Below, piece by piece: positions 1,639 to 43,345 of a stretch of DNA of 64,000 bases; positions within the stretch are counted from its first letter, which is position 1, and each line of letters begins with the position of its first letter. Both the position numbers and the translations under genes were made by a program. The notes below the pieces were generated by a model. It saw only the letters and a program-made list of their open reading frames with translations. It was not told where the DNA came from and did not search any database. The stretch is from Batkoa obscura (taxonomy: Eukaryota): NCBI GenBank assembly GCA_030770535.1, contig JASVEC010000013.1:124001-188000 (forward strand), given 5' to 3'.

Positions 1639-2157
1639 TTATTCCTTCCATAATTCACTATTATAATCTTCTGTTAACTCGGTATCATTACCATATAAAT
1701 ATTGCCAAGACGTAAAACCACCTCTTAAAATATAAATTTGTGAATCTTGATTTAAGTCGTCATTTAGACTAGTCAAATAATTGGAATAAATTGTAGCACA
1801 TTTTGGACCCCTTACTTGAGATAAAGCACAATGAAAAATAAAACTTTTTTTATCTTTATTATTTGAATGGAAATTTTGTACCTCATTTCTAAACTCATTC
1901 GAGGGTATGTTTATACTTCCTTTTATATGACCTCCCTTTTTGGCTTTAGTTTTTGTCTTATCATTTAAAATTGCTTACTTACGATATAATCGTTATCTCT
2001 TACGTCTACTATCAGATAATCTTTGCTACGAGAAAAAGTTAGTAAACAGCTAAATGATTAAGCTATTATTGCTTTGTTACTTCAAATTGTTTTTATTTCT
2101 CAGTATCAGCTCTTTCACTTGCTGGATTTCTATGTATTTAATTCTACTGATACTCAT
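1639..2157 (-). CDS. Cdc25-like rhodanese phosphatase/arsenate reductase (Ibp1/Ych1 family), multi-exon
   Basis: Minus-strand translation: MSISRIKYIE..., DVRDNDY, GGHIKGSINIPS, active loop IFHCALSQVRGPKCA, IYILRGGFTSWQYLYG; TAA at 1639-1641. Absent from the ORF track because exons are short. Confidence 0.88.
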
Positions 2158-5798: not shown

Positions 5799-7347
5799 CT
5801 TTATTTAAAAAAGTATTAAAAAACAACAATATTTCTTCTTTTTCTAAAGTTCATTAAAGCTAGTTTAAATACTATTCTTTTTACCATTCTTACTATCTAC
5901 CTTATTTAAGTCCTTGTTTATCATTTTATTCATCTTCACCCACCTTGAAGTTGGATTTTTGTTATGGCATAACTATTAAATAAATTTATTATAAATGTTT
6001 CATTTGACTCGATAATCTTATGGCGTTTTATTTTCTGTAATCTTTGGTTAATCTTTTTTGTAAAAGTTTAAATCGTTATTAAGAACAGTATAAAATTAAT
6101 ACAAAACTTTAAATAATAAGTTGTATAGTTGCATTATACAAAATTTCAATTTGTTTATTTCAGTTTACTTTTATTATAATTATTTCAAACGTTTAGTTAA
6201 ATTCTTTTTAATGTCTCCATTCTTTCTTAGTTAAAACACATTTTATCCACCCCAATTAATCAGTTTCATTATCACTTTTGAAATCCAACATTTATTATTT
6301 TATTTATATAAAATCAACTTAACCACCCTAACTAAGGATAGTTAATTTATATTCGATCCTTAATTTAGTTTTAATTTATAAATTGAATTAAATAATTGAA
6401 ATTGAAATTAAAATTCACTATATATCGTCTTGTTAATTAATATACTGTGCAATTTTTAATAGAGTATTTTCACTGAAATACATGTCGATTTTATACCAAG
6501 TTTTAAAGGGTGCAATTTCTCTTTTTCAGTGGTTTTTTAGCACCATTAAATTACTGAAATTATTATAATTTCTTACTTTGTTGTGATTAATGTTTAACGG
6601 TTTATATTTAATTATTTCAAAGTATTAGAAAAATAAAATAGTATAAAATCAAATCTTACAATGTAGTTTTATACAAAACAATAATTTTTTTTTAAGTGTA
6701 TCCTTTGTTCTTTTTCAAATGGTAGACATTCTAAAAAAAAGTACAATCTAGAAATAGCCGCAATTTTCTTTTACAAATGCTTACAATTTTAATTGTAAAA
6801 GTTCAAGTTTATTATAATCTAAATCAGGACGTTTATATTAACCAAACTTAAACTTCTTTTTGTTTTATTTAACCCTTTTGATTAATTCATTTATTTGTTA
6901 TCTTTAAATGCTCTACATCTATCTTTACATTTGCCTATTGTCAAATAAAATATTTAGAATTACAGTGAAGGAGTGAAAATTATAAAAACTTTGATATGAA
7001 AGATATAAGAGATGGCGTTCAAGGCTTTATATAGAAAAAACATCGAGTTTAAACAAATTTAAAATGTTAGATAAAAACATGTTATTAAAAACAATTGTTC
7101 CTATACTAAATGCTTTTTAATTTATATTAGCATTTTAAATTTGTATAATCACAACTTAGAAGCCTAGAATTTAGCTTTGGATAGTTTAATATGACTACAA
7201 ATACTAAAAGTATAATAAATGTCTACCTTTTATATGAAATGTTAGACCTTATATAGCTCTAATTTAAAGATAGCAGATAAATGTTTGATATTTTAGATGA
7301 TTATGTTATTAAATCGAGCGTTTTTATAGTTATTAAATAGTTAAAAG

Positions 7348-7480
7348 ATGAATTTCAAGTCAATCATTGTTATTGTTACATCTGTTTAATCAAAGAGCTT
7401 GTTAGTGACTGATTTGTAAAGGAAGTATACGAAATTTTCGCTAAAATATAGAGATATAACAAATTAAGATACAACTAAGT
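7348..7480 (+). pseudogene. HW-peptide family copy 1 (degenerate)
   Basis: ATG AAT TTC AAG TCA ATC ATT GTT ATT GTT ACA TCT GTT TAA = MNFKSIIVIVTSV*, aligning to the signal peptide of the 9365 copy; upstream TTATTAAATAG motif. 3' end approximate. Confidence 0.55.
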
Positions 7481-7687
7481 AAACATGATCTATTAGTGAA
7501 GTTTAACGCAGATATCACTTTAATTACAGGTATAAACTTTGAGATAACAACATATTTTTAACAAAGTGAATATAATTTTAAAAGCAATAACCTTTGACAA
7601 AGAAACCGCCCTTTATACAAATCATTTAGTTACATGATGACATGTATGCTATATCGTTATCAACAATATTTTTGAATTCTTAGTATA

Positions 7688-7793
7688 TATGGGGGTGTTT
7701 TTTTTGGTTTCATCACTTTTTCCATTTTTTAAGCGCTATTTGGAGTGGAAAGATTATTAGTAAAATTTTTAAACATAAAAATACATCCCCATA
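7688..7793 (+). mobile_element. MITE family A (~105 bp, Tc1/mariner-type)
   Basis: TA-TGGGGGTGT...ACATCCCCA-TA: short TIRs, TA flanks, internal AAGCGCTATTT..GGAAAGATT.TTAGTAAAATT shared with 13 other copies. Confidence 0.9.
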
Positions 7794-8027
7794 TACCATT
7801 TATCAAATTAATAATTTGAATCCACCTAATTTATTTCTACTTTGTTTACTGGAAGCACTAAATTATGTGTTAGAAAGACACTATATATGATACTAACTTA
7901 GCCCAACTGGCTGGTTATAAGCTTTAACTTTCATATCAGTCAAGCTTATGCATCAGCATATAAATATGGTTATTCTTTTTTAAGCTCCTCTGTATTAAAC
8001 CTTTTTTGTTAATTAAATAACCGTATG

Positions 8028-8158
8028 ATGGATTTTAAATTAGTGCTTTTTTTCATTGTATTTGTTGTCAGTCAATGCTTATTTGATCACTTGTGACAAT
8101 ACAAGTAACCTACTAAAATCCATCTTATTGATGTTACTTCTGAGCACCGTGGTATTAA
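8028..8158 (+). pseudogene. HW-peptide family copy 2 (frameshifted)
   Basis: MDFKLVLFFIV, then shifted frame LLSVNAYLITCDN (cf. ILSTNAYLIARDN); degenerate end GAG CAC cg TGG TAT TAA; upstream TTAATTAAATA. Confidence 0.7.
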
Positions 8159-8524
8159 AACACTATAGTATTTACCATTTTCCATGCTTTAAGCTTATTT
8201 GCCATTTTTATAGTTGTTTGTATTTTAAGATAATAAAGATGATTACGCGTAAATATATTTTAAATATTAATAAATTTGGATTACAAAAAAGTATTAAATA
8301 TTATAAACTAGTTCATTAATTTCAACGTTGGTTTTTGATAAACATTATATTAGAATATTAGATGTCAATTGTTTTTTAATAGCTTTTTTTTAAAAAAAAC
8401 TTCAATTTTATAACTCACATTCTACAATTTGTATAACAGCTTGGCTACATAACGCTCAGATTATCGAGTAATCCAATCCTTTGTAGAATCTAGAGAATTA
8501 TGAAAATTTATTGTTTTTTTTTTG

Positions 8525-8566
8525 TTTTTATTTTATTTTATTTTATTTTATTTTATTTTATTTTAT
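8525..8566. repeat. (TTTTA)n microsatellite
   Basis: Direct reading: about 8 tandem TTTTA units. Confidence 0.9.
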
Positions 8567-8757
8567 ACATTTATAGCTTTTATTTATATGATTTGATTTT
8601 TATTTTACCAATTTATTATTGAGTCAAAGTACTATCGAATTTAAACAAATAATAAGTTTCTTTTAAAATCGAAAATGGGGGATTTAAAACTGGATATAAA
8701 TCAAGAGAACTAGACAACTTGATGATATAATGTATCAAATATAGTTAATTAGAACTA

Positions 8758-8862
8758 TATGGGGAAGTATTTTTATGTTTAAGAATTTTACTAACAATCT
8801 TTCCGCTGAAATAGCGCTTAAAAGATGGAAAAAATAATGAAATCAAAAAAAACATCCTCATA
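8758..8862 (-). mobile_element. MITE family A
   Basis: Reverse-oriented copy TA-TGGGGAAGT...ACATCCTCA-TA. Confidence 0.9.
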
Positions 8863-9364
8863 TAGCATTGTTATTTTAGCACTTAGTTTAATAAATTATT
8901 TAAAAATGGATCTATTATCTCAAAGCACTATAAGGTCATTTTGCTATCAACACTAAAGCTCAAAAATTTAGAACAAATCAAATAAACAAACTAAGTATGC
9001 GCTAAATAAAATAATAGAAGCTTCTATAAATATCGTATACAAAATAAATAACCCTGAAAATTTTATTGATTACTACTTTTAACAGGTTGACCTCCTTTTT
9101 AAATACCTTGTTCTTTAATCCATTAGTAATGTTGTTTAAAATAATATCAATTTAGTTTAAAAGTAATTGTAAAAGTACTAAAAGTGAATAAAATAACAAA
9201 AATCGAATGTTCTAAATTTGAAATTCAACTTGTTTTTATTCTTTATTATATGCCTATAAAATTTAGTATTTAAAAAACAAATATATAAAATGTTCAATAT
9301 TTACTCTTGTTAAATACCCTCCTTGTTGAACCTATTTTTGTTTATTAATTAAATAGTTTTTAAA

Positions 9365-9496
9365 ATGAATTTTAATTTAATTATCGCTATTGTTGTATCC
9401 ATATTATCAACCAACGCTTATTTAATCGCTCGTGATAACGCAGAAAAGCCACCTGAACCTACATCCACTAATAATAATCCTGGACATTGGCCTTAA
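9365..9496 (+). CDS. Small secreted peptide precursor, HW-peptide family copy 3 (intact, 43 aa)
   Basis: MNFNLIIAIVVSILSTNAYLIARDNAEKPPEPTSTNNNPGHWP*. Hydrophobic signal peptide with T-N-A cleavage site, upstream TATATAAAA, seven paralogues nearby. Confidence 0.85.
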   Translation: MNFNLIIAIVVSILSTNAYLIARDNAEKPPEPTSTNNNPGHWP

Positions 9497-9692
9497 AGTT
9501 TCATAATCTATCTTTTTCGGTATCAGAAACTATATTCTCTTTATTTTGTAATTGATATTCACTTTTAATAAAATTTATTGAATTGTAAAAAAAATAATGT
9601 TTTATTAATCATTATATTGAACTTTGAATGAAATAATTTAGACACAATGTAATTAAATTGTTACCTTAGAAGCTCACTTATCGTTTTTTATA

Positions 9693-9793
9693 TATGGGGA
9701 TGTATTTCTTTGTTTAGAAATTCTAACAATTTTTCCACTCAAATAATGCTTAAAAGATGGAAAAAGTGAAAAGTTAAAAAAAACACCCCTATA
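9693..9793 (-). mobile_element. MITE family A
   Basis: TA-TGGGGATGT...ACACCCCTA-TA. Confidence 0.9.
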
Positions 9794-10220
9794 TCAAGTA
9801 TTTATAGTAATGTTTATTAAATCAAAATAGTAGTTGAAATATCATTAAAAGAATTAAATATCAGTAGATTGTTTATTATAATAATCTAACTAGTTCAACT
9901 GAGTTATAATCTAATAAATACCACATCAAAGTATTAATCTATGACTATTTTTCAGTATAATATATATACTACAAGCAAACAAATGGATATGTATAATATT
10001 TAATATCATTTTTAAATTCTATTTTTTAAAGCATTGGTTTATTTTGTTATACGAATATTTATATATCAATTATCAATACGAAACAAACTTAAAGAAATAA
10101 AAATTCCCCATCACACATTCTTTCACAATAAATAATTTTTTACTCAAAATTTATTGGATTATTTTATGAATACTAGCCTAAGGGTTTCCACAATTTACAA
10201 AGGGATATTATAAAACTCAT

Positions 10221-11003
10221 AAAATGGAGGGGCTACAAGGGGTTGAAAGGAGAACTTAATATGCATAAGTAATTTATATGTTGCAAATAAAATAAATAAA
10301 TAGAAAGGTTAATGCTAATGTTAATTTAACCCTTCATCTCTGTGAAAGTTGATACTTAGTGGTCGAAGTTAAAAGCTACTCTTGCTTAATTAACTTGCCT
10401 TGAGTCGAACGGTCTTAGTTTATGTAACTAAGATAGACTTAACTTAATAGAAATAATACGTATAAACTACGAATTATGTAAAACAAATATAATAGAAGAT
10501 ACTACTGTAAAATCTATATAAGATGTTGTCTGAAAGACTTAATGGCTTTATTAATGGTACGATATCAGGGAATAATTCAGTTAAAAAAGCCTCGAGTTAG
10601 TATGTCGAAGAATCTCTTTTATACTCCAATAAGTATGGATATTAAAAGGAGATAATATTCTTTGCAATATGAAGTTAGAAATTCTCGCAGCAAATCAAAA
10701 TAAGGGATTCTGGTTTGATTGTGTTTGAACTTGAGAACACAACAACTTAAGTGATTGTTGTGTTATAATCAATCCGAGAGCTAAATAAAGCAATATTTCA
10801 CAATCTCTAAGATATAGTCTAAATTTCAAAGGTGCGCTTAGATAGGATTCTATTTTTCGTTAGTGATGGCTATTTTTATTGTTTCTATCTGGAAAATGAG
10901 TGATTAAGCTAATATTCAACTTTCTATGCGTTTTATATATATCATATAAATTGCTTTGATATAAAAAAGATGCCTTTTTAACCCCTTGTAATCCCTTCAT
11001 TTT
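10221..11003. mobile_element. Long-TIR (foldback/MULE-like) non-autonomous element interrupted by a solo LTR
   Basis: Left arm AAAATGGAGGGGCTACAAGGGGTTGAAAGG...AATTTATATG...TAGAAAG (10221-~10330) matches the reverse complement of ~10900-11003 (AAAATGAAGGGATTACAAGGGGTTAAAAAGG...AATTTATATG...TAGAAAG). Confidence 0.7.
10341..10802. mobile_element. Solo LTR (462 bp) with 5-bp target-site duplication
   Basis: Starts TGTGAAA, ends TTTCACA (7-bp inverted termini, TG..CA), flanked both sides by ATCTC; second copy at 17656. Confidence 0.9.
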
Positions 11004-11236
11004 GCAAATTATATTGCTTGTTTTTGTATTTTAGCATTTAAAAATTCTTCTCACATTATTTATAACTAGTTTTTCACTAAATTAAATATCGAAAATTGCT
11101 ACTTTAAAATTTATAATAATCCAGTTTCTTCTTTTTCAACTCTACTTTTTTTAAAAAATTAGAAAAAATTAATAGAAATAAAGGGAAGAGCATTTACTAT
11201 AAAATAAATATTTTCTTACTTATTACTTCATATCAG

Positions 11237-11383
11237 ATAAAACTTTAAACTCAATATTTGTGTTTATATTATTATCTTTTTATCAATGGATGCTTATTTA
11301 ACAGTGGATAATAATGATAACAATAATAATAATAATATAGGATACAATTTATATCCACTTATAGATGTGGACATTGGCCTTGA
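11237..11383 (+). pseudogene. HW-peptide family copy 4 (lost start, frameshift)
   Basis: NFKLNICVYIIIFLSMDAYLTVDNN..., an (AAT)n expansion, then shifted frame ISTYRCGHWP-TGA (11381-11383). Confidence 0.8.
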
Positions 11384-11441
11384 AGTTAAGCTAATACGTT
11401 GCTAGCATTATTTTATAGAATTTAATAATTTAAATTTAAAA

Positions 11442-11547
11442 TACGGGGGTGTTTTTTTTTGGTTTTATCACTTTTTCAATTTTTTAAGCACTATTTGGGC
11501 GGAAAAATTGTTAGTAAAATTCTTAAATACAGAAATACATCTCCATA
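11442..11547 (+). mobile_element. MITE family A
   Basis: TA-CGGGGGTGT...ACATCTCCA-TA. Confidence 0.9.
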
Positions 11548-11762
11548 CTGAGTTTATAGAATTTCACTGTGAGGAATTTCATTGAAATTGGGTTAAAAGT
11601 TTATCTAGTAAGAACATATTTAAAGAAGTAAAAAGAAATAAAAAATCGATCTTATTCAATTTAGCTTAATTTAACTTTAAGTAATAATTTTTATTATTAA
11701 AAAATTAAGCAGTCTTTTTTTTAATCCTATAAATTTTTATTTTTATTTCAGATTCCAATTAA

Positions 11763-11844
11763 GGTGCTATGGCCGAGTGGTCTAAGGCGGCGCACTCAAG
11801 TTGCGCTCTCTTCGGAGGCGTGGGTTCGAATCCCATTGGCACTA
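11763..11844 (+). tRNA. tRNA-Leu(CAA)
   Basis: Acceptor GGTGCTA/TGGCACT-A, D arm GGCCGAGTGGTCTAAGGC, anticodon arm GCGCA-CTCAAGT-TGCGC, long variable arm, GGTTCGAATCCC, downstream T5 terminator. Confidence 0.96.
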
Positions 11845-12014
11845 TATGTTTTTAACATATTTAAATACTACATTAATTTTTTATATTATTATTAAAATAA
11901 AGTAATATTGTTTTATAAATCAATAATTTTTATTTATTATTAAGTATTAATCATAATAAAGTATAAATATACAATTATATAAAATACTTAATATATTTCC
12001 TTTATTTCTTTACT

Positions 12015-14060
12015 TTAAGTAATAACAGTTGGTTCTTTTCTATCAGTAAATTCGGTTAATTTTGAAATTTGTAAAGCAGCTTCAATTAATGGTTTAAGAG
12101 CTTCTGGAGCTTCTTGTTCTGCTTTAATAGCATCAGCTTCATATTTTTCAACATACATACGAATAGTAGCACCACTAGAGCCAGTACCTGATAATCTAAA
12201 AATAACTCGACTACCACATTCAAAGATGAATCTTAAACCCTATTAATGTTAATATTAATATTAATATTATATTAATAATAGTTATAAACTTACTTGATTT
12301 TTTGAAATGGAATGATCAATTGGATCAGTATATTCAAAATTATCTGTTTTCTTTACAGTGAATACATTGAATTTTTGACCAACAAATTCATTCTTATTAA
12401 TTTTTTCTAATAAATAATCCATCATATTCTTAGCTTTAACAGAATCTACTTCTTCATAATCATATCTTGAAAAATAATTACGACCAAATTGTTGATAATG
12501 TTTACTTAATATTTTCTTAATAGTAATTGTATTATCAATTTCATTAATACTAGCTAATATATTTAACCAAGCTAAAATAGCCCATAGTCCATCTTTTTCT
12601 CTAATATGATTACTACCTGTACCAAAAGACTCTTCACCACAAATCGATAATTTATTAGCATCCATCAAATTACCAAAAAACTTCCATCCAGTAGGTACTT
12701 CATAACATGTATATTTTAATCCTTCAGCAACTCGATCTAAAGCAGTAGATGTAGGCATTGAACGAGCTAATCCAGTAATTGGATTTTTCTTAAAGTAAGG
12801 AATAAATTTTGAATTAGCTGCAATAATAGCTACGGAATCAGATGGGTTAACGAATGCATCATAAGCTAAGATCATATTACGATCCCCATCCCCATCGGAA
12901 GCAGCCCCAAAAGAAATTTGATTTTGGTTTACTTTTTCAACTAATTCATGAGCATAAGTTAAATTAGGGTCTGGATGACCATTATTAAAAGTAGGAGATG
13001 GAATACAATTCATTATTGAATTCGAAGATAAATTTAATTCTTTAATAAATAAACGTTGAGCATATTCTCCAGTCACTCCATGCATACCATCAAATAAAAA
13101 TTTAAAATCGGATCTAGTTGAAATAAAATTTTGAATTAATTTAAAATCAAAGATTTCTTTCATTAATTGAACATAATCTTCAATGGAATCAATAATTTCA
13201 ATAATAAAATTATTATATTCAATAGTTCCTATTTTAGAAATATCAATCTATAATTAAAAATATATTATTAATTATTATATTATATTATATTAAATTATAT
13301 TATATAATTTACATCTTGAATATCAGCTAATGAATATTCTTTAATAATTTTAGTATATTCATAAATTTTATCAGTAATTGATTCAGGAGCAGGTCCTATT
13401 ATAAAATAAATATAGAATATAAATAAACATATAAACTAATAATTATTATAATATTATATTTTACCTCCATTGGATACATTATATTTGATACCAAAATCAT
13501 TTTCTGGGCCTAATTAATTAAAAATATTAATTAAATTATATATTATATATTATTATATATTATTATATTATTTACCTCCTGGATTATGAGATGCAGTTAA
13601 TAAAATACCACCTAATAAAAAATAAACAACTATAACTATAAATATATAAATAATTTCTTACCATCAGCCTTAAGTTTACGAATTAAATTAGAAGCAGCAG
13701 GAGTAGATAAAATCCCATTTTGACCAATAATTAATTTAGCTACCTAACAATAATATATTATTAATAAACAATTTTATTTTGGTTATTATTCTATTTTAGT
13801 TTTATACAACTTACCCCATTACCAGCTGCAATTTTAATAATCTTTTGGACAGCTTCTTCAGAAAAATATCTTCCATCTCCACCAACAACAAGGGTTTTTC
13901 CTTGACATCCATTAGGAATAGCTTGTAAGGTAGCTTGAATAAAATTTTCGGTATAATGTTGTTGAGAGAATACAGCTACTTTTTTACGTAATCCAGAAGT
14001 GCCTGGTTTTTGACCATCAAAAATAGTCGTAGGAATTTGTTGAATTGTAAAAGTACTCAT
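12015..14060 (-). CDS. PGM: Phosphoglucomutase, multi-exon
   Basis: [58 protein letters not shown]-terminal PTVIT*. Confidence 0.96.
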
Positions 14061-14475
14061 TTTGTTATTATTTTGAAATGAAATAAAGATTGTTTAAGAG
14101 TTTAACTAAATGTATTTATAGTTTCATTATTGAGGTTAATTAATTATTTGCTTATTGTTATTTGTACAATTTAATTTATCCATGAAATTTTATTAGTCGA
14201 TTTCTTATCAAATCAGAATTTCAAAAGTCAAGTAGCTTTAGATTCTATCGTTTTAATTGGTTCAATATAAAGTTCTAAAAAATAAAAAAAGAATTGGTGG
14301 CAAAATTTTAAATTTATTCATACGTCATCTTACAAAATCAAATATTTGTAGAAGTAATAATAATAACATTACATAATAAACATAATCCTCAATTATTATA
14401 ATAAATATAATTATAAAATAATTTATAATTCATAATTCATAATTCATCAAACTAATATTTTATTCGTTCATTTAT

Positions 14476-15742
14476 CTAATACTTATAAAACCCTCTACCT
14501 GATTTTTTACCTAACCATCCAGCATCCACATAAGTTCTTAATAAAGTAGCTGGACGATATTTAGAATCTCCAAATTGGTGATGTAATACATTCATAATAG
14601 CTAAACAAGTATCTAATCCAATAAAATCAGCTAATGTTAATGGTCCCATTGGATGATTAGTCCCTAATTTCATTGTAGTATCAATATCTTCTTTGGTAGC
14701 AACACCCTAAAAGAGAAAGAAGAATAAAGTTAATATGTATCTAAAGGAGAAAAAGGGAGATAAACTTACTTCTTGTAATGTAAAAATAGCTTCATTAATA
14801 AATGGCATTAATAAACGATTGGCAATGAATCCAGGACTATCCTGGGATATAGTGGTGGTTTTACCTAGAAGAATGAAATTAATTATTACTATGTTAATAT
14901 TAATATAAGATCTATTATTTACCCATAACTTTTGATAATTCTAAAGTAGTATTTAAGGTATGAGTAGAAGTAGCTAATCCAGATATAATTTCAACTAATT
15001 TCATAACGGGTACTGGATTCATAAAATGCATACCAATGACCTATTAAAATAAAATATTAATATTAATATTAATAATATAATATAATAAATTAACTTACAT
15101 TCTCAGGTCGATTAGTTGAAGCAGCAATTTTAGTAATTGGGATAGAAGAAGTATTACTAGCTAATATTGCTTTTTTTTCAAGAATTTGATCCAATTTTTT
15201 AAAAATATCTTGTTTTACACTTAAATTTTCTACTACTGCTTCAACAACAAATTTTGATTCTCCTAGTCCTTCAATATCTTTTACTTTTTCAATTTTACTT
15301 AATATTAAGTCCTTTTGTTCTATTGAAATCTTATTTTTGGATACATCTTTTTCTAATAATTTAACTAAGAAATTATAACCTTTTTCTAAACTTTGGGGGT
15401 TATTATCATAGAATTGCACTTTTTTAATAGTATCAACCTTGGCCGCGACTAATCCAATTCCAATGCCCATTTGACCTGAGCCAACTACTGAAAAGGTATT
15501 GATTTCATTTAAAGTCAAGGAGTTAGACTAAGAATTGAAAAGGATGAATTAAGTAATTAAAAGTTGTAATAAAAAGTAATAATATACTTACTACTTCACT
15601 ACTTAATAGTTTAGATTTAGTATGAAATTTTGAAGTTGAAATCTAAGTTTAATTATAAATAAATATTATGAAAGTTTATTATTTTATATTAATTTACTCT
15701 TATTGATTGAATATTTTTCAAATTAGATTTTAATAATTGCAT
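14476..15742 (-). CDS. 3-hydroxybutyryl-CoA / 3-hydroxyacyl-CoA dehydrogenase, probably mitochondrial, multi-exon
   Basis: [73 protein letters not shown]. Likely start [15 protein letters not shown] at 15742. Confidence 0.92.
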
Positions 15743-16525
15743 TTTGTCTTTAATTGAGGAAAAAATAAAATTCATTGATTTTGATTTTTGATATTTATTT
15801 TCGATTAATTATATACTAGTTTTTTATTGGTTAGGTTTTTAAGATTAAATTTGAAGATTTTTTTAGTTGATTATTTATGTTATTAAAACAATTTAAATGA
15901 ATATAATAATACTGATAATATATATTTACTGAGTAGATATAATTAATTAATCAATTTTAATTAATAGAATATTAGAAACTATAACCTCAACCCTAACTAT
16001 TGTAAGATTCTGGCCCAAATTGAATGATTCTAATATCATTCTTTTGTTTCCTTACTTCATTTTTTTAATAAAAGAACCCAAATATTAAATAATATTTTAT
16101 TCAAATATAAATAAAAATTATAATTAAAAAATTTATTCATAACAAAGTTATTTATTTATCAATAATCTTTTAATATATTCTTTATAATTAAATTACTTAT
16201 AACAATAATAATAATATCATTATTATTGTTAATAGTATTATTATAATATAAAGTGTAGTGAATAATTAATAGAATAATAATACTTATTATAATAATTCAT
16301 ATTATTATTATTATTATTATTATAATAGAGTTTAAAAATGCATTTAAAGTAAAGTAAAGTATTAATTCAAAAATAATTATATAATGAATTAGAAATTGTA
16401 ATTTATATATTTACAGAGTCTAACAATTTATAAGGATCAGTTATACTTATAAAACCTAAACAATCTTCAATTACAACATTTAACAAATAGATTCATATAA
16501 TGAGTTTGTTAATATAAAGTTATCT

Positions 16526-16657
16526 TTAATGTCAATGGCCTTCACTGTTGGTAGTAAGAGGTAGTGGTGGGAGATTATTTTCATTGTCATGAGGGATTAA
16601 ACAAGCATTAGGAAATAAAAGAGATACAGTAGAAATAAAAAGGAAATTAAAATTCAT
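16526..16657 (-). CDS. HW-peptide family copy 5 (TGA at conserved Trp)
   Basis: MNFNFLFISTVSLLFPNACLIPHDNENNLPPLPLTTNSEGH-TGA-H-TAA; 44 codons, same length as the intact copy. Confidence 0.75.
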
Positions 16658-17112
16658 TATTATTTGGTTAAATTGAAAATGAAAGTAGAATTAAAAGAAA
16701 ACGATAAATGAATAAATGAATGAGTTTACATACCTAATATTCTAACCAATATGTAATATGAAAACAATTAAGTGATATAAGAAAATAAACATATTTTAAT
16801 AGAAAATAAATTCATATTAATTTATTGATATCTTAATAATAGTCCTATTAGTTCTATTAAGTGCTAGTAATTTATAAGACTAAATAAAAACGAGATTCAA
16901 TTCCATTCTCAGAATGAAAACCTATAATAATTATTAAATTCTTGATAAGATTATAAAACTAGTATATATTTATATATATTTGTATTGTTATAATAAAATA
17001 TGATTGATGAGCGTTAAACTTTCAAGCTTTATTCAACCACTATAGAATTCATCTATAAAATAAGAAAAAAAACCAAAACTATATATGTAGTGTCTTGTGT
17101 TTAATAATAATC

Positions 17113-17250
17113 TTAAGGTCAATGTCTTTCATAGTTGCTAGACTTAGACAAGTCTACAGTTTCCATGTTATTACTATAGATTAGGTAGGCATTGATAGAT
17201 AAAATAGATAAAATAGATATCATAAAGATAAAGATTAGATTAAAATACAT
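17113..17250 (-). CDS. HW-peptide family copy 6 (TGA at conserved Trp)
   Basis: MYFNLIFIFMISILSILSINAYLIYSNNMETVDLSKSSNYERH-TGA-P-TAA; upstream TTAATTAAATA. Confidence 0.75.
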
Positions 17251-17309
17251 TTGTTTCAATATTTAATTAACAATAGAAAACGTTTGTAAAAATAATGTAA
17301 ATTGTAATA

Positions 17310-17413
17310 TATGGGGGTGTTTTTTTAGTTTCATCACTTTTTACATTTTTTAAGCGCTATTTGAGTGGAAAAATTACTAGTAAAATTCTTAAACAAAAAA
17401 ATACATCCCCATA
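17310..17413 (+). mobile_element. MITE family A
   Basis: TA-TGGGGGTGT...ACATCCCCA-TA. Confidence 0.92.
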
Positions 17414-17655
17414 TGAGAATATCCGAATTGGTTTCATTTTTTTTATCTAATTTTTAAATATTTTAAGTATCAAAAACTTTGCTTAGCATTCTATAAAAGT
17501 AAATTAGTAGAATTTTTACTAAATATAATAGAAATTCCCGGATTAGCAAGCCTTCTACTAGTATAACTTATATGTTGACATTAATCAAAGTTGTAATATG
17601 TAAATAAATATATATTCCTATAAAACTCTATTGAGAAATATTTATTATTAATTGC

Positions 17656-18136
17656 TGTGAAAGTTGGTACTCAGTGGTTGGAGTTAAAAGCAGTTCTTGC
17701 TTAATTAACTTGCCTTGAGCTGAACGGTCTTAGTTCATATAACTAAGATAGACTTAAATGAATAAGATTAATACATAATGAGTTACGAATTATGTAAAAC
17801 AAATAGAATAGAAGATACTACTGTAAAATCTACGTAAGATGTTATCAGAAAGACTTAGTGGCTTTATTAATGATACGTTATTAGGGAGTAATTCAATTAA
17901 AAAGCTTCGAGTTAGTATGTTGAAGAACCTCTTTTGCATTCCAACTGAGTGGCTATATATAAGGAACATTATAGCAGTTATTCCTTATTATAGTTGCCAA
18001 GTATGGACATTAAAACGTGGACAATAAATTCTTCGTGGTCGGGTAGTAGTAATTCTCACAGCAAATCTATATAAGGAGCTCTGAATTGATTATTATGTTA
18101 TAATCAATCATAGAGCTAATGAACCGATATTTCATA
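17656..18136. mobile_element. Solo LTR, second copy
   Basis: Aligns in direct orientation with 10341-10802 (TGTGAAAGTTG...CTTGCTTAATTAACTTGCCTTGAG...ATATTTCATA); flanks ATTGC and AAGAC do not match. Confidence 0.85.
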
Positions 18137-19222
18137 AAGACTTATAAATTTAAAAACTTAAAATTTAGATTAATTTTTAGCCGAATTTTGAAACCAATTG
18201 GTGCACCCTTATATATTAAGCATTACTTGTACTTGATTTTAAATAATCATAAAAACTAATTTATATAAGTTGTATTAATTTCAACTATGTGGAACTGAGA
18301 TAGTGTTATTCAAATAAATAATAAAAGCCTAAATTACTATTGAAAATGCTAATAAAATAAATTGACAGTAAATAGAAGGTACAGTGATAAATAAAGCTAA
18401 TTTATTTATTTTATTAACAAATAACTATAGTTTTGTTTCTAATCAGTAGATAAATCAATTGTATGATTTTTGATGATAGTGTTCTAATAGTAAAAACATC
18501 TATTACCTTCTGTTTAATCTAATAAATTCATTTATCAATTGTTGCTAAAATCAAAGCTAAAACGTTATTTTGAATTGATAGTATTCTATACCTTTTTTCA
18601 TAATTGTACAATTTATTTTTTACGATTTTAACTTCCTTAGAATATTGAATGCTGGATAATTCCACTTAACATTTTGACTTTAATTTGTATATTTTAGGCT
18701 GATTCAACAGCTTTTAACATTATTAATGGGTTAAATTATAGAATATTTATATAAAATACTTAAATAAGAATAGTATATTTATTAAAAAATACCAATAAAA
18801 GACTAACAAAATTTTAATAAATTGCAATATTATAGACGTTCATGCATTTAACAATATAAAAGCTTAATGGTCTTTTTAACATTGATAATCTAAATCTTTT
18901 TTTATAATAACAATTACTTGATTTATGTATAATTTATAAAATATACATATATTATAATATTATTAAAACTTTTCATTTTTTTAAACATTAATAATGTATT
19001 AAACATTTGTAGTTTAAGTCACAAAATTGGTCTATAAATTTTATATAAGGAATTTTATTAATTTTTGTATGAAAAATTATTTAGATAAAATATAAAAGTG
19101 AAAAGTAGTCTGTTACATTGTTAAACAGTAATTAATCAACATTTCATTACCCTGAAATTTTAATCAACTTTAAAGTATCAGTAATCAACCCTATAACATA
19201 TAACCAATGTGTACAACGATAT

Positions 19223-19354
19223 TTATAACCAATGATCTGTAATAGAAGTAGTTATAGACTATATAAAACTAATTAATCTATCACAAGGAAATAGATAAAC
19301 CTTGGTAGTAGTTAAAATGGATACGACAAAAGCTAGGATCAATCTGAAGTTCAT
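19223..19354 (-). pseudogene. HW-peptide family copy 7 (internal TAG)
   Basis: MNFRLILAFVVSILTTTKVYLFPCDRLISFI*SITTSITDHWL*; 44 codons, frame intact. Confidence 0.8.
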
Positions 19355-20598
19355 TTTATAATTAATTTCTGTCAAAATAATATAATAACATTAAAATATA
19401 AGTTGTTTATATACTTGACTCAAATTAAAGTTATATTGATAGTATGTCACATAAGTAAATTGAGTATGATCTGTGCTAACGAAGTGTTCTATATGATGTA
19501 TTTTAAAACCGTTTTGTATATCAAGGAATAGATCCTCAATAAAAAATTGAGTTTTTAGGTCTTTTTAAACTATTAATTAAAAAAGTGTAAAATATCAAAA
19601 ATCCTTAATATAAACAAAATATTGTTATAACTAGCTATATTAAGTCCAATAGATTCCTCAACTTAGAAGTTGTTACTAACAAAAAGGACTAACATACAGT
19701 ATTAAAGTCTATATTACATAGTAAAGCATTTTATTATTATCTTAAAGTAGTTACTCTCTTTTTAAAAAGGTGACATTATTTCTTTTAATAAGCTATTCAA
19801 TTCACTTTTTGATAATTTCAAACTTACCATGCACTAACTTTCAATAATAAAGGTGATTATTAAAGGAAGATCAATATATTAAATGAAACAAAAAAAAGAT
19901 TATTAAAAGGAAAAACAATAAGAAGTTGATAGTATAAATTCATATGAATGGTAAAATCTTGACTACAAATTTAAATGTGATTGTTTTATACCATGATTTT
20001 TTAAAATGGAATTAGTACTGATAAAAATTGATGTTTTTTACACAAAAAGGCTGATATTAGTTTATCTTAACTAATATTAATATACTATGTTCCTGAAATT
20101 TAATACATTAATCGAGCCTCAAAATTCTATAAAATAATCATATTAATTTATTAAATAAAAATAGTGTCCAATATAGATGATTTATAATAATGGACCAATT
20201 TATCTAAAACATTTACGTTTTGGTTATTAAAGAGCTTAAACTAATAAACTGAAAGTTTGTAATATAAAAAATCTTTATTTCAATATAAAGTCCTAGTTAC
20301 ATTTAAGTTATCTCTCACTTTTGATTTATATCTTAAAAGTTTTCATAATATATTATATGACATATGTGTTAAAGTTATTAATTTAATGTACTAATTAGTA
20401 ATTTTCAAGATTAAAATTATAAATTATAATATTAAATTATGGATTTTTATTTTAATATTTTAAAAAATGATAAATTTTATAAAAATTACTAAAGCAGTAT
20501 CTTATAGCATCTTAAAATTTATTATTTTAAAGAAAAAGTCTGAAAAGATTAAAAATAAATCCAGAAGCATACAAAAGCACTAAAATAACAATGCATCT

Positions 20599-20724
20599 TT
20601 AAGACCAATGTCCGCATCTTCAACCAAAGATAGGTTCTGATGGTGGGATTTCATTAGCGACAGTTAAATGAACATCAGCTGCTAAAACGAATACACTAAA
20701 GGGAAGGATTAATTTGAAATTCAT
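20599..20724 (-). pseudogene. HW-peptide family copy 8 (internal TGA)
   Basis: MNFKLILPFSVFVLAADVHLTVANEIPPSEPIFG*RCGHWS*; frame intact. Confidence 0.8.
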
Positions 20725-20878
20725 ATTGTTATTATTTGATTAATGTTAAATATCTTATTAAGATGTTAAATTAATATTAACTGTTGACACTTTTATACTT
20801 AGTTTGATCTAATGTTCTATAAGTGCTATGGGATTAGATAAAGGTCTTTAACATGGGTGTTGTAGCATTATTTTTTGA

Positions 20879-20983
20879 TATGTGAATGTATTTTTGTGTT
20901 TAAGAATTTCACTAACAATTTTTCCGCTCAAATAGTGCTTAAAACATGGAAAAAACAATGAAGCCAAAAAAGACACCCCCATA
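20879..20983 (-). mobile_element. MITE family A
   Basis: TA-TGTGAATGT...ACACCCCCA-TA. Confidence 0.88.
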
Positions 20984-21112
20984 TGTTCGCCCATTTTGGA
21001 GATACTAATCCATGTAGAGATAAATCCTAAAACCTTAAATACACTAATTGAAATAGTAAAAATCTAATTAAATAGAATTTATTAAGTATAAAACTGAGAG
21101 CATTTATTAAGA

Positions 21113-21217
21113 TATGGGGATGTATTTTTTTGTTTAAGAATTTTACTAACAATCTTTCCACCAAAATAGCGCTTGAAAAATGGAAAAAGTGATGAAGCCA
21201 AAAAAAACATCTCCATA
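21113..21217 (-). mobile_element. MITE family A
   Basis: TA-TGGGGATGT...ACATCTCCA-TA. Confidence 0.9.
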
Positions 21218-22025
21218 TGCATACATTCAACAAAAGTAATTCCCTTTATCTTTCCTGTCAAGAATATATGTTTTAAACTCCCTGGTAATAGTTTTACAGC
21301 CAAAGTCATCAAATTGCCATACATTTATGATTTCAATCGATTGTTCTATAAATTAGCGATACGGTAATCAAAACTTTCACAATTACTTTAGTTAAAATAA
21401 TTTTGTGTAAAATTTTAAGTTTATAAAAATTTAAAAAATCAATTCAAAACTACAAGATAGAAAAAACAAAAACAATAATGAAACCAATTATGATTCTATT
21501 ATAGCTTCTATTTCAAATGATACTATATAGGCAGCATCTTATTATTATAATAAAGCTTATCTTTACCTTTATAATATTCTTTTATCTTAACTTTCATTTT
21601 TATTTTCAAAATTAGCTATCAAAATTCTCACAGGATTTGCATAATAAAAAATAGATTATGTACCTATAATTAATTGGTTATATTATAGCATTTTGATATT
21701 AAATAAAATATTGTATCTATAATATTCTTATTAAAACATTATATTTGTTATTGTTTTATTCTTTATTAAACTGGCCCTTTGATCCTAACAGTATAAAGTG
21801 ATTATACACGATAATATTAAATTCAAATTGTTTAGTATTTAAGTTTTTTGTTTACTTTTTATACAGGTTAAGAGTATCGATACTGCTAATGATTATTAAT
21901 TTTCTAAAATGAGCAAATGATTATTCCTCAAGCGCTTTGTTTTGTTGCCTATAACTTATATACGTTTAACTTGTATAATAGAATAAGAAAGGGAAACATT
22001 AATTGCTTTTATTTTTTTTTAAAAG

Positions 22026-23468
22026 TTAAGCTTTATTTTCCTTAACCGTATTCATCCCTCTTATGCCTTTAATATGCGATTTTGCAGGCACTAGAATAAC
22101 ATTGTCGTCTTCAATTTCGTGAGAATGGCTGAATATTTCAGTATTATAATAATCATTATTTACATCTAAAGGATTAATTGGCTTAATTAGAATAGGTTCA
22201 AGTATAGTGCTTGGAGGTCTTTCCTTTCTTAATTTGCGTCTATAAAAAAGAAATAACACAGCTCCAGATATTAGTATAATACCTCCGATTCCTCCACTAA
22301 TGCCTCCAATCAAAGCGCCATTGTTACTCTTTTCTCCTTTACCTCCTTTGTCTTTAACTGTGATTTTTTCTTCAATTTTGTTATCAATATTACTATTTTT
22401 AACTGATGAAGATATATGATCGATCTGCTCCCAATCAGTCATATTTATTAATTGAACTCTATTCGTACTTTGAAGCATATTTTTCTTTTTCCTTTCTGAT
22501 TAAATAAGAATAAAGCCAAATGAATTCATTAAATAGTTTTTATAAACACCAAAACAACCATCATTGTTTATTCTAATCTGCTTAATTTTTTTGAATGAAA
22601 ATGGTGATAACTTCAATTCAAAAATATCACCTAAAAAATAACTCCCAGATTCTTCATACCCGAGAAAATAAACTGACTGGTTATATTTTATTACTTCAAA
22701 ATAGCTATATTTATTGATTTTAATATCATAAGATTTTGGGCTTTTTGAAACTAAATTTATTTCATGCAATTTATCATAACTTTCTATATCGTACTGCTTT
22801 TCTTCTAAGTATTTGAAATAATATATACTATTGTTTAAAATGAATAATTGATGCATAGTTTCACTTTCAGGTAAGTTAAAGACTGGCTTAATTTTCTTAG
22901 TTTCAATGTCAAATAGTTGTAATTGGAATGATTTTACTTTCTCTGGTTCGGTAACCCTGAAATTACCAGAAATATAAAATTGGCTATTGTTTTTTTCATT
23001 TTGTGAAATATAATAATCTTGTGATATTACTTTAATTTTTGAACTTATTGTATTAAAACCTTTATATAAATTTGTAATAACATACTCGTCATGCCATTCT
23101 TTTTTATTAATATCAAAATATTTAAACGACAATAACTTACTATCTTTATTTTTATAAAAAGCTACTATAGTTTTGACCCCACCTTTAATTGTAGAAAAAA
23201 CATTTGGGTAAACATAAATTTCTTCTGGGTAATTAGTTACATTATATGTTTCCCACTCCGCGGTATTATCTACTAATTTAAACCCATCTTTTAAATCCAA
23301 TGTAAATAACTTCTCATTCAATTTGATTCCATTCACATTTGGCAAATATACACTCCCGCCTAAATAGTACACTTTATCTTCAATTATAACGCAGCCACCA
23401 GATTGTACCCTTGGTGAAAAAGCTGCAGCTCTATTAAGTAAAAAAATACCAAGTAATAGAACAAACAT
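22026..23468 (-). CDS. Kelch/beta-propeller-like type I membrane protein, interrupted by one in-frame TAA (22500-22502)
   Basis: Signal peptide, PRVQSGGCVIIEDKVYYLGG, TM segment LIGGISGGIGGIILISGAVLFLFY-RRK. The two track ORFs are in the same frame, 7 codons apart. Confidence 0.75.
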
Positions 23469-23589
23469 TAAAAAAGGTATCGAATGATTGTTACTTAATT
23501 TAAGGACATATCATATTTGTAAAAACTTTCTTTAAACCAATTATAAATAATAATAATAAATATACTCTAATGATATTATATTTGTAATA

Positions 23590-23685
23590 TTTGGAGGTGT
23601 TTCCTGGTTTCATTAATTTTCCATTTTTAAGCACTATCTAAGTGGACGTTGTTAGTAAAGCTAAACAAGAAAATACATCCCCATT
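23590..23685 (+). mobile_element. MITE family A, degenerate
   Basis: TGGAGGTGTTT..CCATTTTTAAGCACTAT..GTTAGTAAA..ACATCCCCA. Confidence 0.8.
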
Positions 23686-23705
23686 TATTTGTTTTCAATT
23701 TTAGA

Positions 23706-23880
23706 TATGAGGGTGTTTTTTTACCAGTTGCCCTTTTTTGCTATTTTTTAAGTTAAAAATTAATTGCTCGATTAAAATACTTAAATTTGAACTAAAAGGG
23801 ACTTATGGAGGATTTTTAGTCACTGCACGTTTTCATTTTTTTAAAATAGCAAAGGGCAATTGATAAAAAACATTCCCATA
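23706..23880. mobile_element. MITE family B (~175 bp, ~45-bp TIRs)
   Basis: TATGAGGGTGTTTTTTTACCAGTTGCCCTTTTTTGCTATTTT versus right-end reverse complement TATGGGAATGTTTTTTATCAATTGCCCTTTGCTATTTT; TA flanks. Confidence 0.85.
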
Positions 23881-24882
23881 TAGAATATCTTTCTGTGACT
23901 ATTTTTTATTTTTGAGCTTAGGATTTGAGCAAATCATCAGACTATTAAATTGAAACGCGTCCATTTATCATCATTTTTCTTTCAAAAGGTTTATGTCCCA
24001 AGTGCTTGATTAGCTACGATAAAAGTCAAGCACTTAGGGCAGTCAACTTGTGAGAGAAGTGGGATTGAAATTTGTATCTATTTGTTATTAATTTGAATGA
24101 TTTTTTTAACAATAGCTAAAATAAATTCCAAACTTATTAAAAAGCTGTTTTTGTATCATAAATTTTGACAACTATGATTTTTTTCTATGCTATAGAATAA
24201 TAGAAAACGTTAGTTGCTTACAAGTAATATTTTTAGAGAATGCCATCTACGTTGTCACTGATATTTAAATAAGAACTAGTTGAGAGAAAGGAGATAAGAT
24301 AAGCAAGATTAGCTTGAAATCCTTTTTTTTAATCATTAGTCGATGAGAATTAACTTATTCGGGCGATAAGTATTTATATACTTATTTCAGAACCTGGATT
24401 ATATAACCATTTTGACTCTAAATTGCATATTTATTATAGTAATATAGAGCAGATATACTTAATATAAAAGATGGAACACTGAATTATTTCAACATATCTC
24501 TAGTTTACTTGGGGTTAACGGAATGGAAATAAATTTTCCTGATTAAATCTCAACTTATAAGAATAATAATGACCAAAAAGTATTAAAAGTAGGAATTATC
24601 CAGAGGCAGGAATTGTATAACTTCGTTAAAAAGATGATAGAGTAAAACTGTCCTAGATCCTTATAGTTTTTATTTAGCTTATAATTCTATTACATTTTGG
24701 AATCTTAAAGCTTAATCTACCCAAGTAAGACACTAAGCTACTTTATATCTTTATTGATAGTAGTATTTCTCGATTTCTAAAATATTGAGTATCAACGCAA
24801 TTTCATTAATTTTTAATTGGCTACACTCAAATGTTTACATCTAGTTCCAGATAAAAATAAAAATTCTAAATTGAAATCGATA

Positions 24883-25428
24883 ATGAGTGATAAAAAATAC
24901 CATCCCGAAATCGAATTCATAAATCCAAAGCAATTAGCTGAGGATATCTTAAACGACAAATTGCGCGTAAAGTAAGGATAGTAATAAAAATTATTTAAAT
25001 CAATCGACTAACTTTATTATAGTGAGGAGATAGCCATAATTGATGTAAGAGATAATGACTTTGTGGTAAGGATTAGTATAAGATAGAGCTTAACAAAACT
25101 AAGTATTTAACTATAGGGAGGGAACGTTACTGGAGCTATCAATTCACCAAGTAAGAAATATGAAGATGAGAAGCAAGAATTATATAACAGAGTCAAGGAT
25201 AAAAAAAGAGTGATATTTTACTGTGGTTCTTCTACTGGAAGAGGGCCTAGAATCGCAGGTTTTTATAAAGACTTTCTAAATCAAAGACAAAAAGAGGATA
25301 ACTTTGATGGAAATAAAGATCAAAAAGTGGAGGTATTAACTTATGGTTTTAAGGCCTGGTACCCACTTTATAAAGATGAAACTAAGCTGGTTGAAAATTT
25401 CGACCCTTTAATTTGGGATAAAAATTAA
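24883..25428 (+). CDS. Cdc25-like rhodanese phosphatase/arsenate reductase, second paralogue, multi-exon
   Basis: MSDKKYHPEIEFINPKQLA..., IIDVRDNDFV/GGNVTGAINSPS, VIFYCGSSTGRGPR, LTYGFKAWYPLY. Confidence 0.85.
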
Positions 25429-27960: not shown

Positions 27961-28145
27961 AAAAATAATGACATAACCTTAGTTATACATTTGTGCCACC
28001 CTTTTGATTTTATTTTTCATACAATAAATAAAATTTAATTAGACATAAGTTTGCTATTACTTTTTGTTGTGATTTATTTTTTATTACAATTTAAATTAAT
28101 TTTTTATAAATTATAAATTTAACTTTTTAAATTTATTGAGCTAAG

Positions 28146-43086: not shown

Positions 43087-43191
43087 TATGGGGGTGTTTT
43101 TTTTGGTTTCATTATTTTTTCCATTTTTTAAGCGCTATTTGAGCGGAAAGATTGTTAGTAGAATTCTTAAACAAAAAAATACATTCCCATA
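43087..43191 (+). mobile_element. MITE family A
   Basis: TA-TGGGGGTGT...ACATTCCCA-TA. Confidence 0.92.
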
Positions 43192-43345
43192 TAACGACTC
43201 ATTCAATAATTTGTACACTCATATTTGTAAATTAAAAAATAAAAAACTAAGAATTAAAAGCACTTTTTAATTACTGGTCTATTAAGACAAAAGATGATTT
43301 AAGGTCTAATGAACTATACATTAAAATGTGAAAAAGTTCAATCGC

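What the first reader, a model, noticed from the sequence alone, without database searches (positions are those of the whole stretch)
7348..20724. Cluster of eight paralogous tiny secreted-peptide genes ending in G/D/R-H-W-x-stop
Seen: copies at 7348+, 8028+, 9365+, 11237+, 16657-, 17250-, 19354- and 20724-. They share an M-N-F-[KNR]-L-I signal peptide, an N/D-A-Y-L cleavage region, a variable Pro/Asn/Ser/Thr spacer and a conserved C-terminus (PGHWP, CGHWP, CGHWS, TDHWL, EGH*H, ERH*P); copy 1 retains only the signal part. Lengths are about 41-45 codons, below the ORF-track cutoff, so standard annotation would miss them. Inference: signal peptide + variable region + conserved C-terminal motif is the layout of peptide-signal precursors (e.g. 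plant CEP/PIP). I do not recognise the family. It could be an undescribed pheromone, signalling peptide or host-directed effector under birth-and-death evolution.
Basis: partly seen in the sequence, partly recalled or inferred. Interest (0 to 1): 0.88.

Follow-up and report, generated by a model that had tools for sequence, protein, structure and literature searches.

The report
Hidden fungal peptide gene, decayed copies
An insect-infecting fungus carries one intact gene for a tiny 43-residue peptide, transcribed in a close relative and predicted to be secreted, amid eight broken copies of itself; it matches no known family and likely gives a short signal peptide ending in His-Trp-Pro, in a fungal group whose signals between cells are poorly known.

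Summary
The family is real, but it is not eight genes. All 8 copies are homologous (leave-one-out nhmmer E 6e-25 to 4e-5) and a ninth lies at 24324-. Only 9365-9496 is intact (43 aa). The others have a lost start, a frameshift or an early stop. The host is Neoconidiobolus (phosphoglucomutase 98% identical to N. thromboides). In a spliced RNA run of a close relative, one contig covers 9337-9498 without gaps (9 differences in 162 nt), so this gene or a near-identical copy is transcribed. Selection acted on the protein. Among 7 copies the signal region (0.62) and the GHWP-stop block (0.72) are conserved and the spacer is not (0.36). Between strains the intact locus differs about half as much as its flanks. 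Pfam, PDB, Atlas, two protein collections and a metagenome scan gave no relative. It fails the tests for Kex2-repeat pheromones, plant CEP/RGF and Qsp1 membership, but its layout resembles the Qsp1 precursor. Best reading: a secreted precursor whose C-terminal His-Trp motif is the active part, likely a fungus-to-fungus signal (0.4); a host-directed peptide is the main rival. Secretion, processing and function are untested.

The parts
9365..9496 (+). Intact 43-aa peptide precursor gene: hydrophobic N-terminus (predicted signal peptide, cut likely after Ala18), Y-L-I-A-R-D-N, Pro/Thr/Asn spacer, C-terminal G-H-W-P-stop; no Cys
   Evidence: hydropathy; RNA contig over 9337-9498 with 0 gaps in run X12
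9282..9289 (+). TATA-like box 81-83 nt upstream of the intact start codon
   Evidence: a TATAWA hexamer lies within 100 nt upstream in 7 of 9 copies, in AT-rich DNA, chance not computed
7348..7393 (+). Broken copy: signal region only, stop after 13 codons, 3' part unrecognisable
   Evidence: (leave-one-out E 3.5e-5)
8028..8158 (+). Broken copy: frameshifted, degenerate end block (W-Y-stop in another frame)
   Evidence: (E 7.3e-11)
11238..11383 (+). Broken copy: no ATG, AAT-repeat expansion, G-H-W-P-stop block out of frame with the signal region
   Evidence: (E 3.8e-5)
16526..16657 (-). Broken copy: in frame, stop at the Trp position (41 aa as it stands)
   Evidence: (E 5.3e-13)
17113..17250 (-). 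Broken copy: in frame, stop at the Trp position (43 aa as it stands); a MITE sits 58 nt upstream of its ATG
   Evidence: (E 1.2e-7)
19223..19354 (-). Broken copy: in frame, one stop in the spacer, ends D-H-W-L-stop
   Evidence: (E 1.2e-5)
20599..20724 (-). Broken copy: in frame, one stop in the spacer, ends G-H-W-S-stop
   Evidence: (E 2.7e-15)
24245..24324 (-).
   Evidence: (E 2.4e-6)

Best explanation
The intact gene at 9365-9496 encodes a 43-residue precursor that is predicted to be secreted and would be trimmed to a short peptide whose conserved C-terminal Gly-His-Trp-Pro likely acts as a signal between cells of the fungus itself, while the eight neighbours are broken paralogues. Shown: one intact frame, eight broken copies, conservation confined to the signal region and the last four codons plus stop, and an ungapped RNA contig over the gene in a relative. 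Inferred: entry into the secretory pathway and signal cleavage after Ala18 (25-mer); possible further trimming at L-I-A-R (20-mer) or outside the cell; recognition of the free C-terminal His-Trp motif by a fungal receptor or importer that sets growth, sporulation or fusion, as Qsp1 does in Cryptococcus. Inferred history: gene-sized local duplications gave paralogues that diverged under selection with different spacers; all but one were then lost in this lineage, helped by a strong C>T/G>A bias.
For: Regional identity among 7 copies (the 2 without an end block left out): signal 0.62, Y-L-I-A-R-D-N 0.57, spacer 0.36, end block 0.72, 3' flank 0.40-0.41. The best 15-nt window after position 75 is exactly the end block; 0 of 20000 column permutations reached it. 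Codon positions 1/2/3 in the first 25 codons: 0.54/0.73/0.56, the pattern of selection for hydrophobic residues. In 5 of 7 copies with the block, the start codon is in frame with G-H-W-x-stop, and one copy has a different stop codon at the same place. Four of 8 broken copies keep ATG and frame with one stop; under neutral decay the chance of 4 or more was 0.058 or less in all 6 settings with 0.25-0.35 changes per site. RNA run X12 (spliced: it skips a 54-nt phosphoglucomutase intron) has a 164-nt contig on 9337-9498, depth 997.5, 9 differences, 0 gaps, where neighbouring non-repeat bins read 0-24. Strain divergence over 9235-9595 is 20 of 361 (by subtraction of two listed pieces) against 148 of 1401 in four flanking pieces, Fisher p 0.003. 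No Cys, net charge -1 after residue 18, unlike Cys-rich effectors or cationic antimicrobials. Qsp1 is secreted as a pro-peptide, matured outside the cell and imported (PMC7537855, passages).
Against: No call bears on the target: self-signal over host-directed rests on analogy. No signal-peptide predictor was available, and the intact copy has no basic residue in its n-region. The 9 RNA differences were not listed, so an open frame in the relative is shown only as absence of gaps; the contig may come from a near-identical paralogue, and its divergence alone is borderline against the flanks (p 0.052). One RNA study only. The Arg of L-I-A-R is present in 1 of 9 copies and Ala at P2 is not among the preferred Kex2 residues (PMC8528282, passages). 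At 0.15 changes per site the neutral simulation gave 0.40, 0.15 and 0.01. No homologue was found in any other fungus; so narrow a range and loss of 8 of 9 copies fit a host arms race as well as a core signal. No processing enzyme or recognisable receptor lies in the cluster.
Confidence: 0.4

Rival explanations
1. The peptide is secreted but aimed at the insect host (or at another partner organism): the C-terminal motif would bind a host receptor or enzyme, and the many dead copies would be the trace of an arms race.
For: N. thromboides is treated as a generalist insect pathogen (PMC11105155, passages). Lineage-restricted, fast turnover, hypervariable spacer, MITE-rich surroundings.
Against: No Cys scaffold; no C-terminal Gly or Gly-Lys/Arg amidation signal as most insect neuropeptides have (recalled); no hit to any animal peptide in Pfam, PDB or the 1.84-billion library; the paper search on GHWP gave only an unrelated receptor motif.
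Confidence: 0.25
2. It is a secreted peptide with a non-signal role: the core of a modified natural product (His-Trp cross-link), a metal-binding or antimicrobial peptide, or a component of the spore coat or mucilage.
For: A short invariant His-Trp core at the C-terminus behind a variable linker would suit an enzyme substrate or a metal site (inference). Zoopagomycota are rich in Kex2-processed peptide precursors (PMC7329392, passages).
Against: No tailoring enzyme among the ORFs in or beside the cluster: phosphoglucomutase, 3-hydroxyacyl-CoA dehydrogenase, a kelch protein and a tRNA. Single core, no repeats, acidic.
Confidence: 0.2
3. The family is dying or neutral: all copies, 9365 included, are relics, and the RNA is leftover transcription from an old promoter.
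For: 8 of 9 copies are broken; strain divergence of the RNA contig alone is borderline against flanks (p 0.052); no homologue elsewhere.
Against: Ungapped RNA contig far above neighbouring bins and halved strain divergence at 9365, whereas the piece over broken copy 7348 differs at 41 of 339 sites with 13 gap letters.
Confidence: 0.1
4. The single-stop copies are not dead: stage-specific stop readthrough or RNA editing would let them be made as peptide variants.
For: Four copies keep ATG and frame and carry exactly one TGA or TAG, never TAA; two stop at the same codon.
Against: G>A and C>T are the commonest changes here, about three times the reverse, which makes such stops the expected first hits; the two copies that share the stop group together in the tree with weak support (65); TGA occurs as a normal stop at 3 of 13 long ORFs checked. 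Such editing is known from Sordariomycetes only (recalled).
Confidence: 0.05

Closest known systems
Cryptococcus Qsp1 quorum-sensing peptide precursor
   Same: Tiny secreted pro-peptide with a single active core; the mature 11-mer ends in aromatic-Pro-Trp (bioRxiv 10.1101/191668, passage); matured outside the cell and imported by Opt1 (PMC7537855, PMC6571750, passages). A precursor length near 45 aa with the core at the C-terminus is recalled, not confirmed (one search found no paper).
   Different: No sequence relation found; different phylum; maturation, import and function untested here; nine copies with eight broken.
Kex2-processed repeat proteins (KEPs) and alpha-factor-type pheromone precursors
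   Same: Signal peptide followed by a processed bioactive peptide; common in Zoopagomycota (PMC6339444, PMC7329392, passages).
   Different: One core, no repeats (three were the minimum in PMC6339444), no KR/RR site; variation lies in separate genes, not in tandem repeats.
Kex2 pro-domain-processed (K2PP) fungal effectors, LxxR motif
   Same: L-I-A-R follows the predicted signal cut in the intact copy (motif from PMC8528282, passages).
   Different: Arg in 1 of 9 copies; the product would be a 20-residue unstructured peptide, not a folded Cys-rich protein.
Plant post-translationally modified peptide hormones (CEP, PIP, IDA, RGF/GLV)
   Same: Signal peptide, variable region, conserved C-terminal motif with Pro, Gly and His; multigene family (layout recalled).
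   Different: Fungal host; their motifs (recalled) are absent; no Pfam hit at E up to 1.

Membership tests
Qsp1-type quorum peptide | Very short secreted pro-peptide with one C-terminal core | tested here: inconclusive
   Layout fits; secretion rests on hydropathy only
Qsp1-type quorum peptide | Sequence homology to Qsp1 | tested here: not met
   No relative; the 2 hits are repeat artefacts. No direct pairwise alignment with the Qsp1 precursor was run
Qsp1-type quorum peptide | Extracellular maturation by a Pqp1-like protease and import by Opt1 | not testable with these tools
   Needs peptidomics and mutants; no whole genome was held
KEP / alpha-factor precursor | Three or more repeated cores separated by Kex2 sites | tested here: not met
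   Single core, no KR or RR (criterion)
a-factor-type lipopeptide pheromone | C-terminal CAAX box and no signal peptide (recalled) | tested here: not met
   Ends G-H-W-P, has a hydrophobic N-terminus, no Cys
K2PP effector | KR, RR or LxxR after a disordered N-terminal pro-region | tested here: inconclusive
   L-I-A-R in 1 of 9 copies; Ala at P2 not among the preferred residues
Small cysteine-rich secreted effector | Several Cys forming disulfides | tested here: not met
   0 Cys in the intact product
Plant CEP/PIP/RGF peptides | Family C-terminal motif and plant origin | tested here: not met
   No Pfam hit; fungal host; motifs compared from recall
Insect neuropeptide mimic | Core shared with a host neuropeptide, usually with an amidation signal | tested here: inconclusive
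   No amidation signal in the sequence; no hits; no dedicated neuropeptide library was searched
Transposon fragment or non-coding RNA | Terminal repeats, high copy number or Rfam match; conservation independent of codon position | tested here: not met
   Rfam: only the tRNA in 6000-25000; homology among copies is gene-sized and separate from the MITE; codon-position signal

The most novel reading that the evidence does not exclude
This is the first peptide pheromone or quorum signal of the Zoopagomycota: a single-core His-Trp peptide, too short for gene callers, that Neoconidiobolus uses to time conidiation or zygospore formation, with the paralogue cluster recording past signal dialects.
Probability: 0.25. 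Interest if true: 0.8.

Novelty: new variant of a known kind. Interest (0 to 1): 0.5.

Why it matters
A review states that mating genetics in Zoopagomycota is still not well understood (PMC10386755, passage), and searches listed no paper on a peptide signal or on this family in Entomophthoromycotina. A transcribed, constrained 43-codon gene gives a candidate that can be synthesised for little money and tested on a culturable fungus. It also shows that small peptide genes in these insect pathogens slip through annotation: the exact product is absent from about 15 billion predicted proteins, although a 98% identical phosphoglucomutase is on record. If it is host-directed instead, it is a new kind of Cys-free micro-effector. 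Lineage-specific small secreted families with dead copies are common in fungi, which limits the surprise until a function is shown.

Tried and rejected
Homologue searches with no result: 5.8-billion collection, near lengths, no candidate; longer proteins, 0 of 967 candidates at E up to 10; 1.84-billion representatives, 2 hits, both summed repeats without the layout; Pfam 0 of 3 peptides; PDB 0; ESM Atlas no usable hit; exact look-up 0 of 3 peptides, but also 0 of 2 other window proteins, so weak; metagenome pattern scan, 3 matches, all chance: other frames, no signal region, HMM scores 8.3 bits or less. A scan of collections by protein could not run on so short a query. Short, low-complexity queries make all these blanks weak. 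RNA without cover, not counted as evidence: run X2 (organism B) has no contig at 9270-9476 although its phosphoglucomutase is covered; in X12 the bins over copies 8031 and 11238 read 2.5 and 0, and the bin over 7348 reads 94 from pieces mostly not listed (one ends near 7314, before the ATG). The five copies beyond 13400 were not tested for RNA. Only 4 of 12 listed runs were laid; none is on record as RNA, but X12 skips an intron and X2 shows a poly(A) tail. Alternative frame: the end block also reads D-I-G-L-K in the +1 frame with mild changes; rejected because 5 of 7 copies, the intact one included, put the ATG in the G-H-W frame and the RNA contig has no gap or intron there; the 2 frameshifted copies do fall in the +1 frame. 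Alternative genetic code: TGA ends 3 of 13 long ORFs and Trp is read from TGG. RGF-like N-P-G-H resemblance (recalled): rejected, the other defining residues are absent. The paper hit for GHWP is an insect chemoreceptor motif. The tree of the nine copies is unresolved (supports 21-65). No fold or complex was predicted: a 25-residue unstructured peptide with no candidate partner. Three look-ups of earlier findings were blank. The primary Qsp1 papers were not held; no supplements were read, and the KEP tables there could list Neoconidiobolus peptides.
Full report
Setting. The window is 22-35% GC with intron-bearing eukaryotic genes. An exon of the phosphoglucomutase inside the cluster is 98% identical to that of Neoconidiobolus thromboides; the next hits are at 65% or less. 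The host is thus N. thromboides or a close relative (Entomophthoromycotina), treated as a generalist insect pathogen in PMC11105155 (passages). No whole genome was held, so copies outside the window could not be counted.

Observation. An HMM of seven copies found the eighth in 8 of 8 trials (E 5.7e-25 to 3.8e-5), and the full HMM found a ninth copy at 24324- (E 2.4e-6) with the next hit at E 0.29. Only 9365-9496 runs from ATG to the G-H-W-P-stop end (43 aa). Copies 16657- and 17250- stop at the Trp position; 19354- and 20724- have one stop in the spacer; 8031+ is frameshifted; 11238+ lacks ATG and its end block is out of frame with its signal region; 7348+ stops after 13 codons; 24324- lacks ATG and the end block. 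Four copies lie on + and five on -, over 17 kb, interrupted by a tRNA-Leu, phosphoglucomutase and a 3-hydroxyacyl-CoA dehydrogenase. All-against-all BLAST of 500-nt flanks shows homology only over the gene and at MITE copies, so the unit of duplication, or what is left of it, is gene-sized.

Was it a protein-coding family? Among the 7 copies that keep the end block (7348 and 24324 left out), mean pairwise identity is 0.40 far upstream, 0.51 just upstream, 0.62 in the signal region, 0.57 in Y-L-I-A-R-D-N, 0.36 in the spacer, 0.72 in the last four codons plus stop, and 0.40-0.41 downstream. The best 15-nt window after position 75 coincides with the end block, and 0 of 20000 column permutations reached it; the alignment itself favours such blocks, so the p-value is generous. 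Second codon positions are the most conserved in the first 25 codons (0.54/0.73/0.56). Distances to the intact copy are 0.53-1.02 changes per site, yet 4 of 8 broken copies keep ATG and frame with a single stop. In neutral-decay simulations the chance of 4 or more such copies was 0.058 or less in the 6 settings at 0.25-0.35 changes per site, and 0.40, 0.15 and 0.01 in the 3 settings at 0.15. So most divergence took place while the copies were still under selection, and the breaks are later. The block also reads D-I-G-L-K in the +1 frame, but 5 of 7 copies place the ATG in the G-H-W frame; the two frameshifted copies fall in the +1 frame.

Expression and strain comparison. Twelve runs hold part of 7300-17299; four were laid on 7200-13400 at 80% likeness. 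X12 (organism D) is spliced RNA: its phosphoglucomutase contig skips 54 nt at an intron. It has a 164-nt contig on 9337-9498, depth 997.5, 9 differences and no gap, while neighbouring non-repeat bins read 0-24. The contig spans 28 nt of leader, the whole frame and the stop. Contigs show neither strand nor ends nor level; no continuation into the 3' flank was laid, so a near-identical paralogue cannot be excluded; the 9 differences were not listed. DNA run X5 (same organism label) has a piece over 8861-9595 with 57 differences and 9 gap letters; a piece of X1 over 8861-9234 with the same length offset has 37 and 9, which leaves 20 differences and no gap over 9235-9595 if both are one haplotype. 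That is 5.5%, against 10.6% (148 of 1401) in four non-repeat flanking pieces picked from the 32 records listed (p 0.003) and 3.3% in phosphoglucomutase; the RNA contig alone gives p 0.052 against the flanks. The piece over broken copy 7348 differs at 41 of 339 sites with 13 gap letters. Copies beyond 13400 were not tested.

Anatomy. Residues 5-13 have a mean hydropathy of 3.47, with Thr16 and Ala18 at the usual -3 and -1 places; no signal-peptide predictor was run. A screen for short frames with a hydrophobic start and polar tail gave 4 in the window: 9365, 17250 and two MITE frames. The predicted 25-mer has no Cys and net charge -1. L-I-A-R fits the extended Kex2 motif LxxR (PMC8528282, passages), but the Arg is present in 1 of 9 copies; others have Cys, His, Ser, Asp or Ala there. 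CpG is depleted (observed/expected 0.64) and C>T/G>A changes are about three times the reverse, so loss of that Arg and stops at the Trp codon are the expected first hits. The site is therefore possible, not established. What selection kept is the entry signal and a free C-terminal His-Trp-x; the length and sequence between them were free.

Relatives and literature. No homologue was found, 49/53 or 67; the queries are short, so these blanks are weak. Rfam gave only the tRNA. Paper searches (listings and abstract starts) showed no description of the family; passages were read in PMC7537855, PMC11105155, PMC8528282, PMC10386755, PMC6571750, PMC6339444, PMC7329392, PMC3203159, PMC4414376 and bioRxiv 10.1101/191668; no whole text and no supplement was read.

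Mechanism. Shown: one intact gene, eight broken paralogues, two-ended conservation, RNA in a relative. Inferred: secretion, trimming and a C-terminal ligand. Among uses of such a ligand I rank a fungus-to-fungus signal first (0.4): the peptide is linear, acidic and Cys-free, has no tailoring enzymes beside it, and the closest fungal precedent for a tiny single-core secreted pro-peptide is Qsp1. A host-directed peptide (0.25) explains the turnover equally well; a modified or structural peptide (0.2), a relic (0.1) and readthrough of the single-stop copies (0.05) follow. It works like a Qsp1- or plant-hormone-type precursor in layout, and is not a member of Qsp1, KEP, a-factor, CEP/RGF or Cys-rich effector families by the tests listed.

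Verdict. Real, unannotated and apparently undescribed, but smaller than claimed: one live gene. New variant of a known kind; interest 0.5. If it proves to be a pheromone or quorum peptide of Zoopagomycota (0.25), interest 0.8.

Noticed in passing
window, 14 places from 7687 to 51993 (e.g. 43086-43193): A 108-nt MITE-like element with TATGGG...CCCATA ends, 76-94% alike; summed contig depth in two DNA runs is thousands of times that of single-copy DNA, so it is very abundant genome-wide. Eight copies lie among the peptide genes; one sits 58 nt upstream of copy 17250.
   Followed up: partly
window 10321-10800 and 17655-18134: A second repeat of about 480 nt, 72-87% alike in two copies, also multi-copy in DNA runs and present in RNA contigs; unclassified.
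   Followed up: partly
window 7249-11508, runs X1 and X5: Run X1 shows two haplotypes of equal depth, one sharing its differences with X5; X5 shows one haplotype at 7249-7587 and little or no cover over copy 8031. This hints at heterozygosity or duplication and at copy polymorphism, but holes prove nothing.
   Followed up: no
window 41154-42143 (-): A 329-codon frame that reads like a seven-helix membrane protein (by eye); no Pfam hit and no meaningful PDB hit. About 17 kb from the cluster; no link to the peptide shown.
   Followed up: partly
window 22026-23510 (-): Kelch-repeat protein with a likely single membrane helix, read in two adjacent frames split at 22500, between copies 8 and 9.
   Followed up: no
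window 28140-32792 (+): A 1550-codon, very acidic low-complexity frame without a Trp codon and with internal repeats spaced 105-123 nt apart.
   Followed up: no
window 7200-13400, strain differences: Strong C>T/G>A bias and CpG depletion (0.64) in intergenic DNA; relevant to the open question of methylation or RIP-like mutation in Entomophthorales raised in PMC11105155.
   Followed up: partly
window 1639-1974 (-) and 25117-25428 (+): Two frames that look like rhodanese/Cdc25-type phosphatase domains (by eye, not searched).
   Followed up: no
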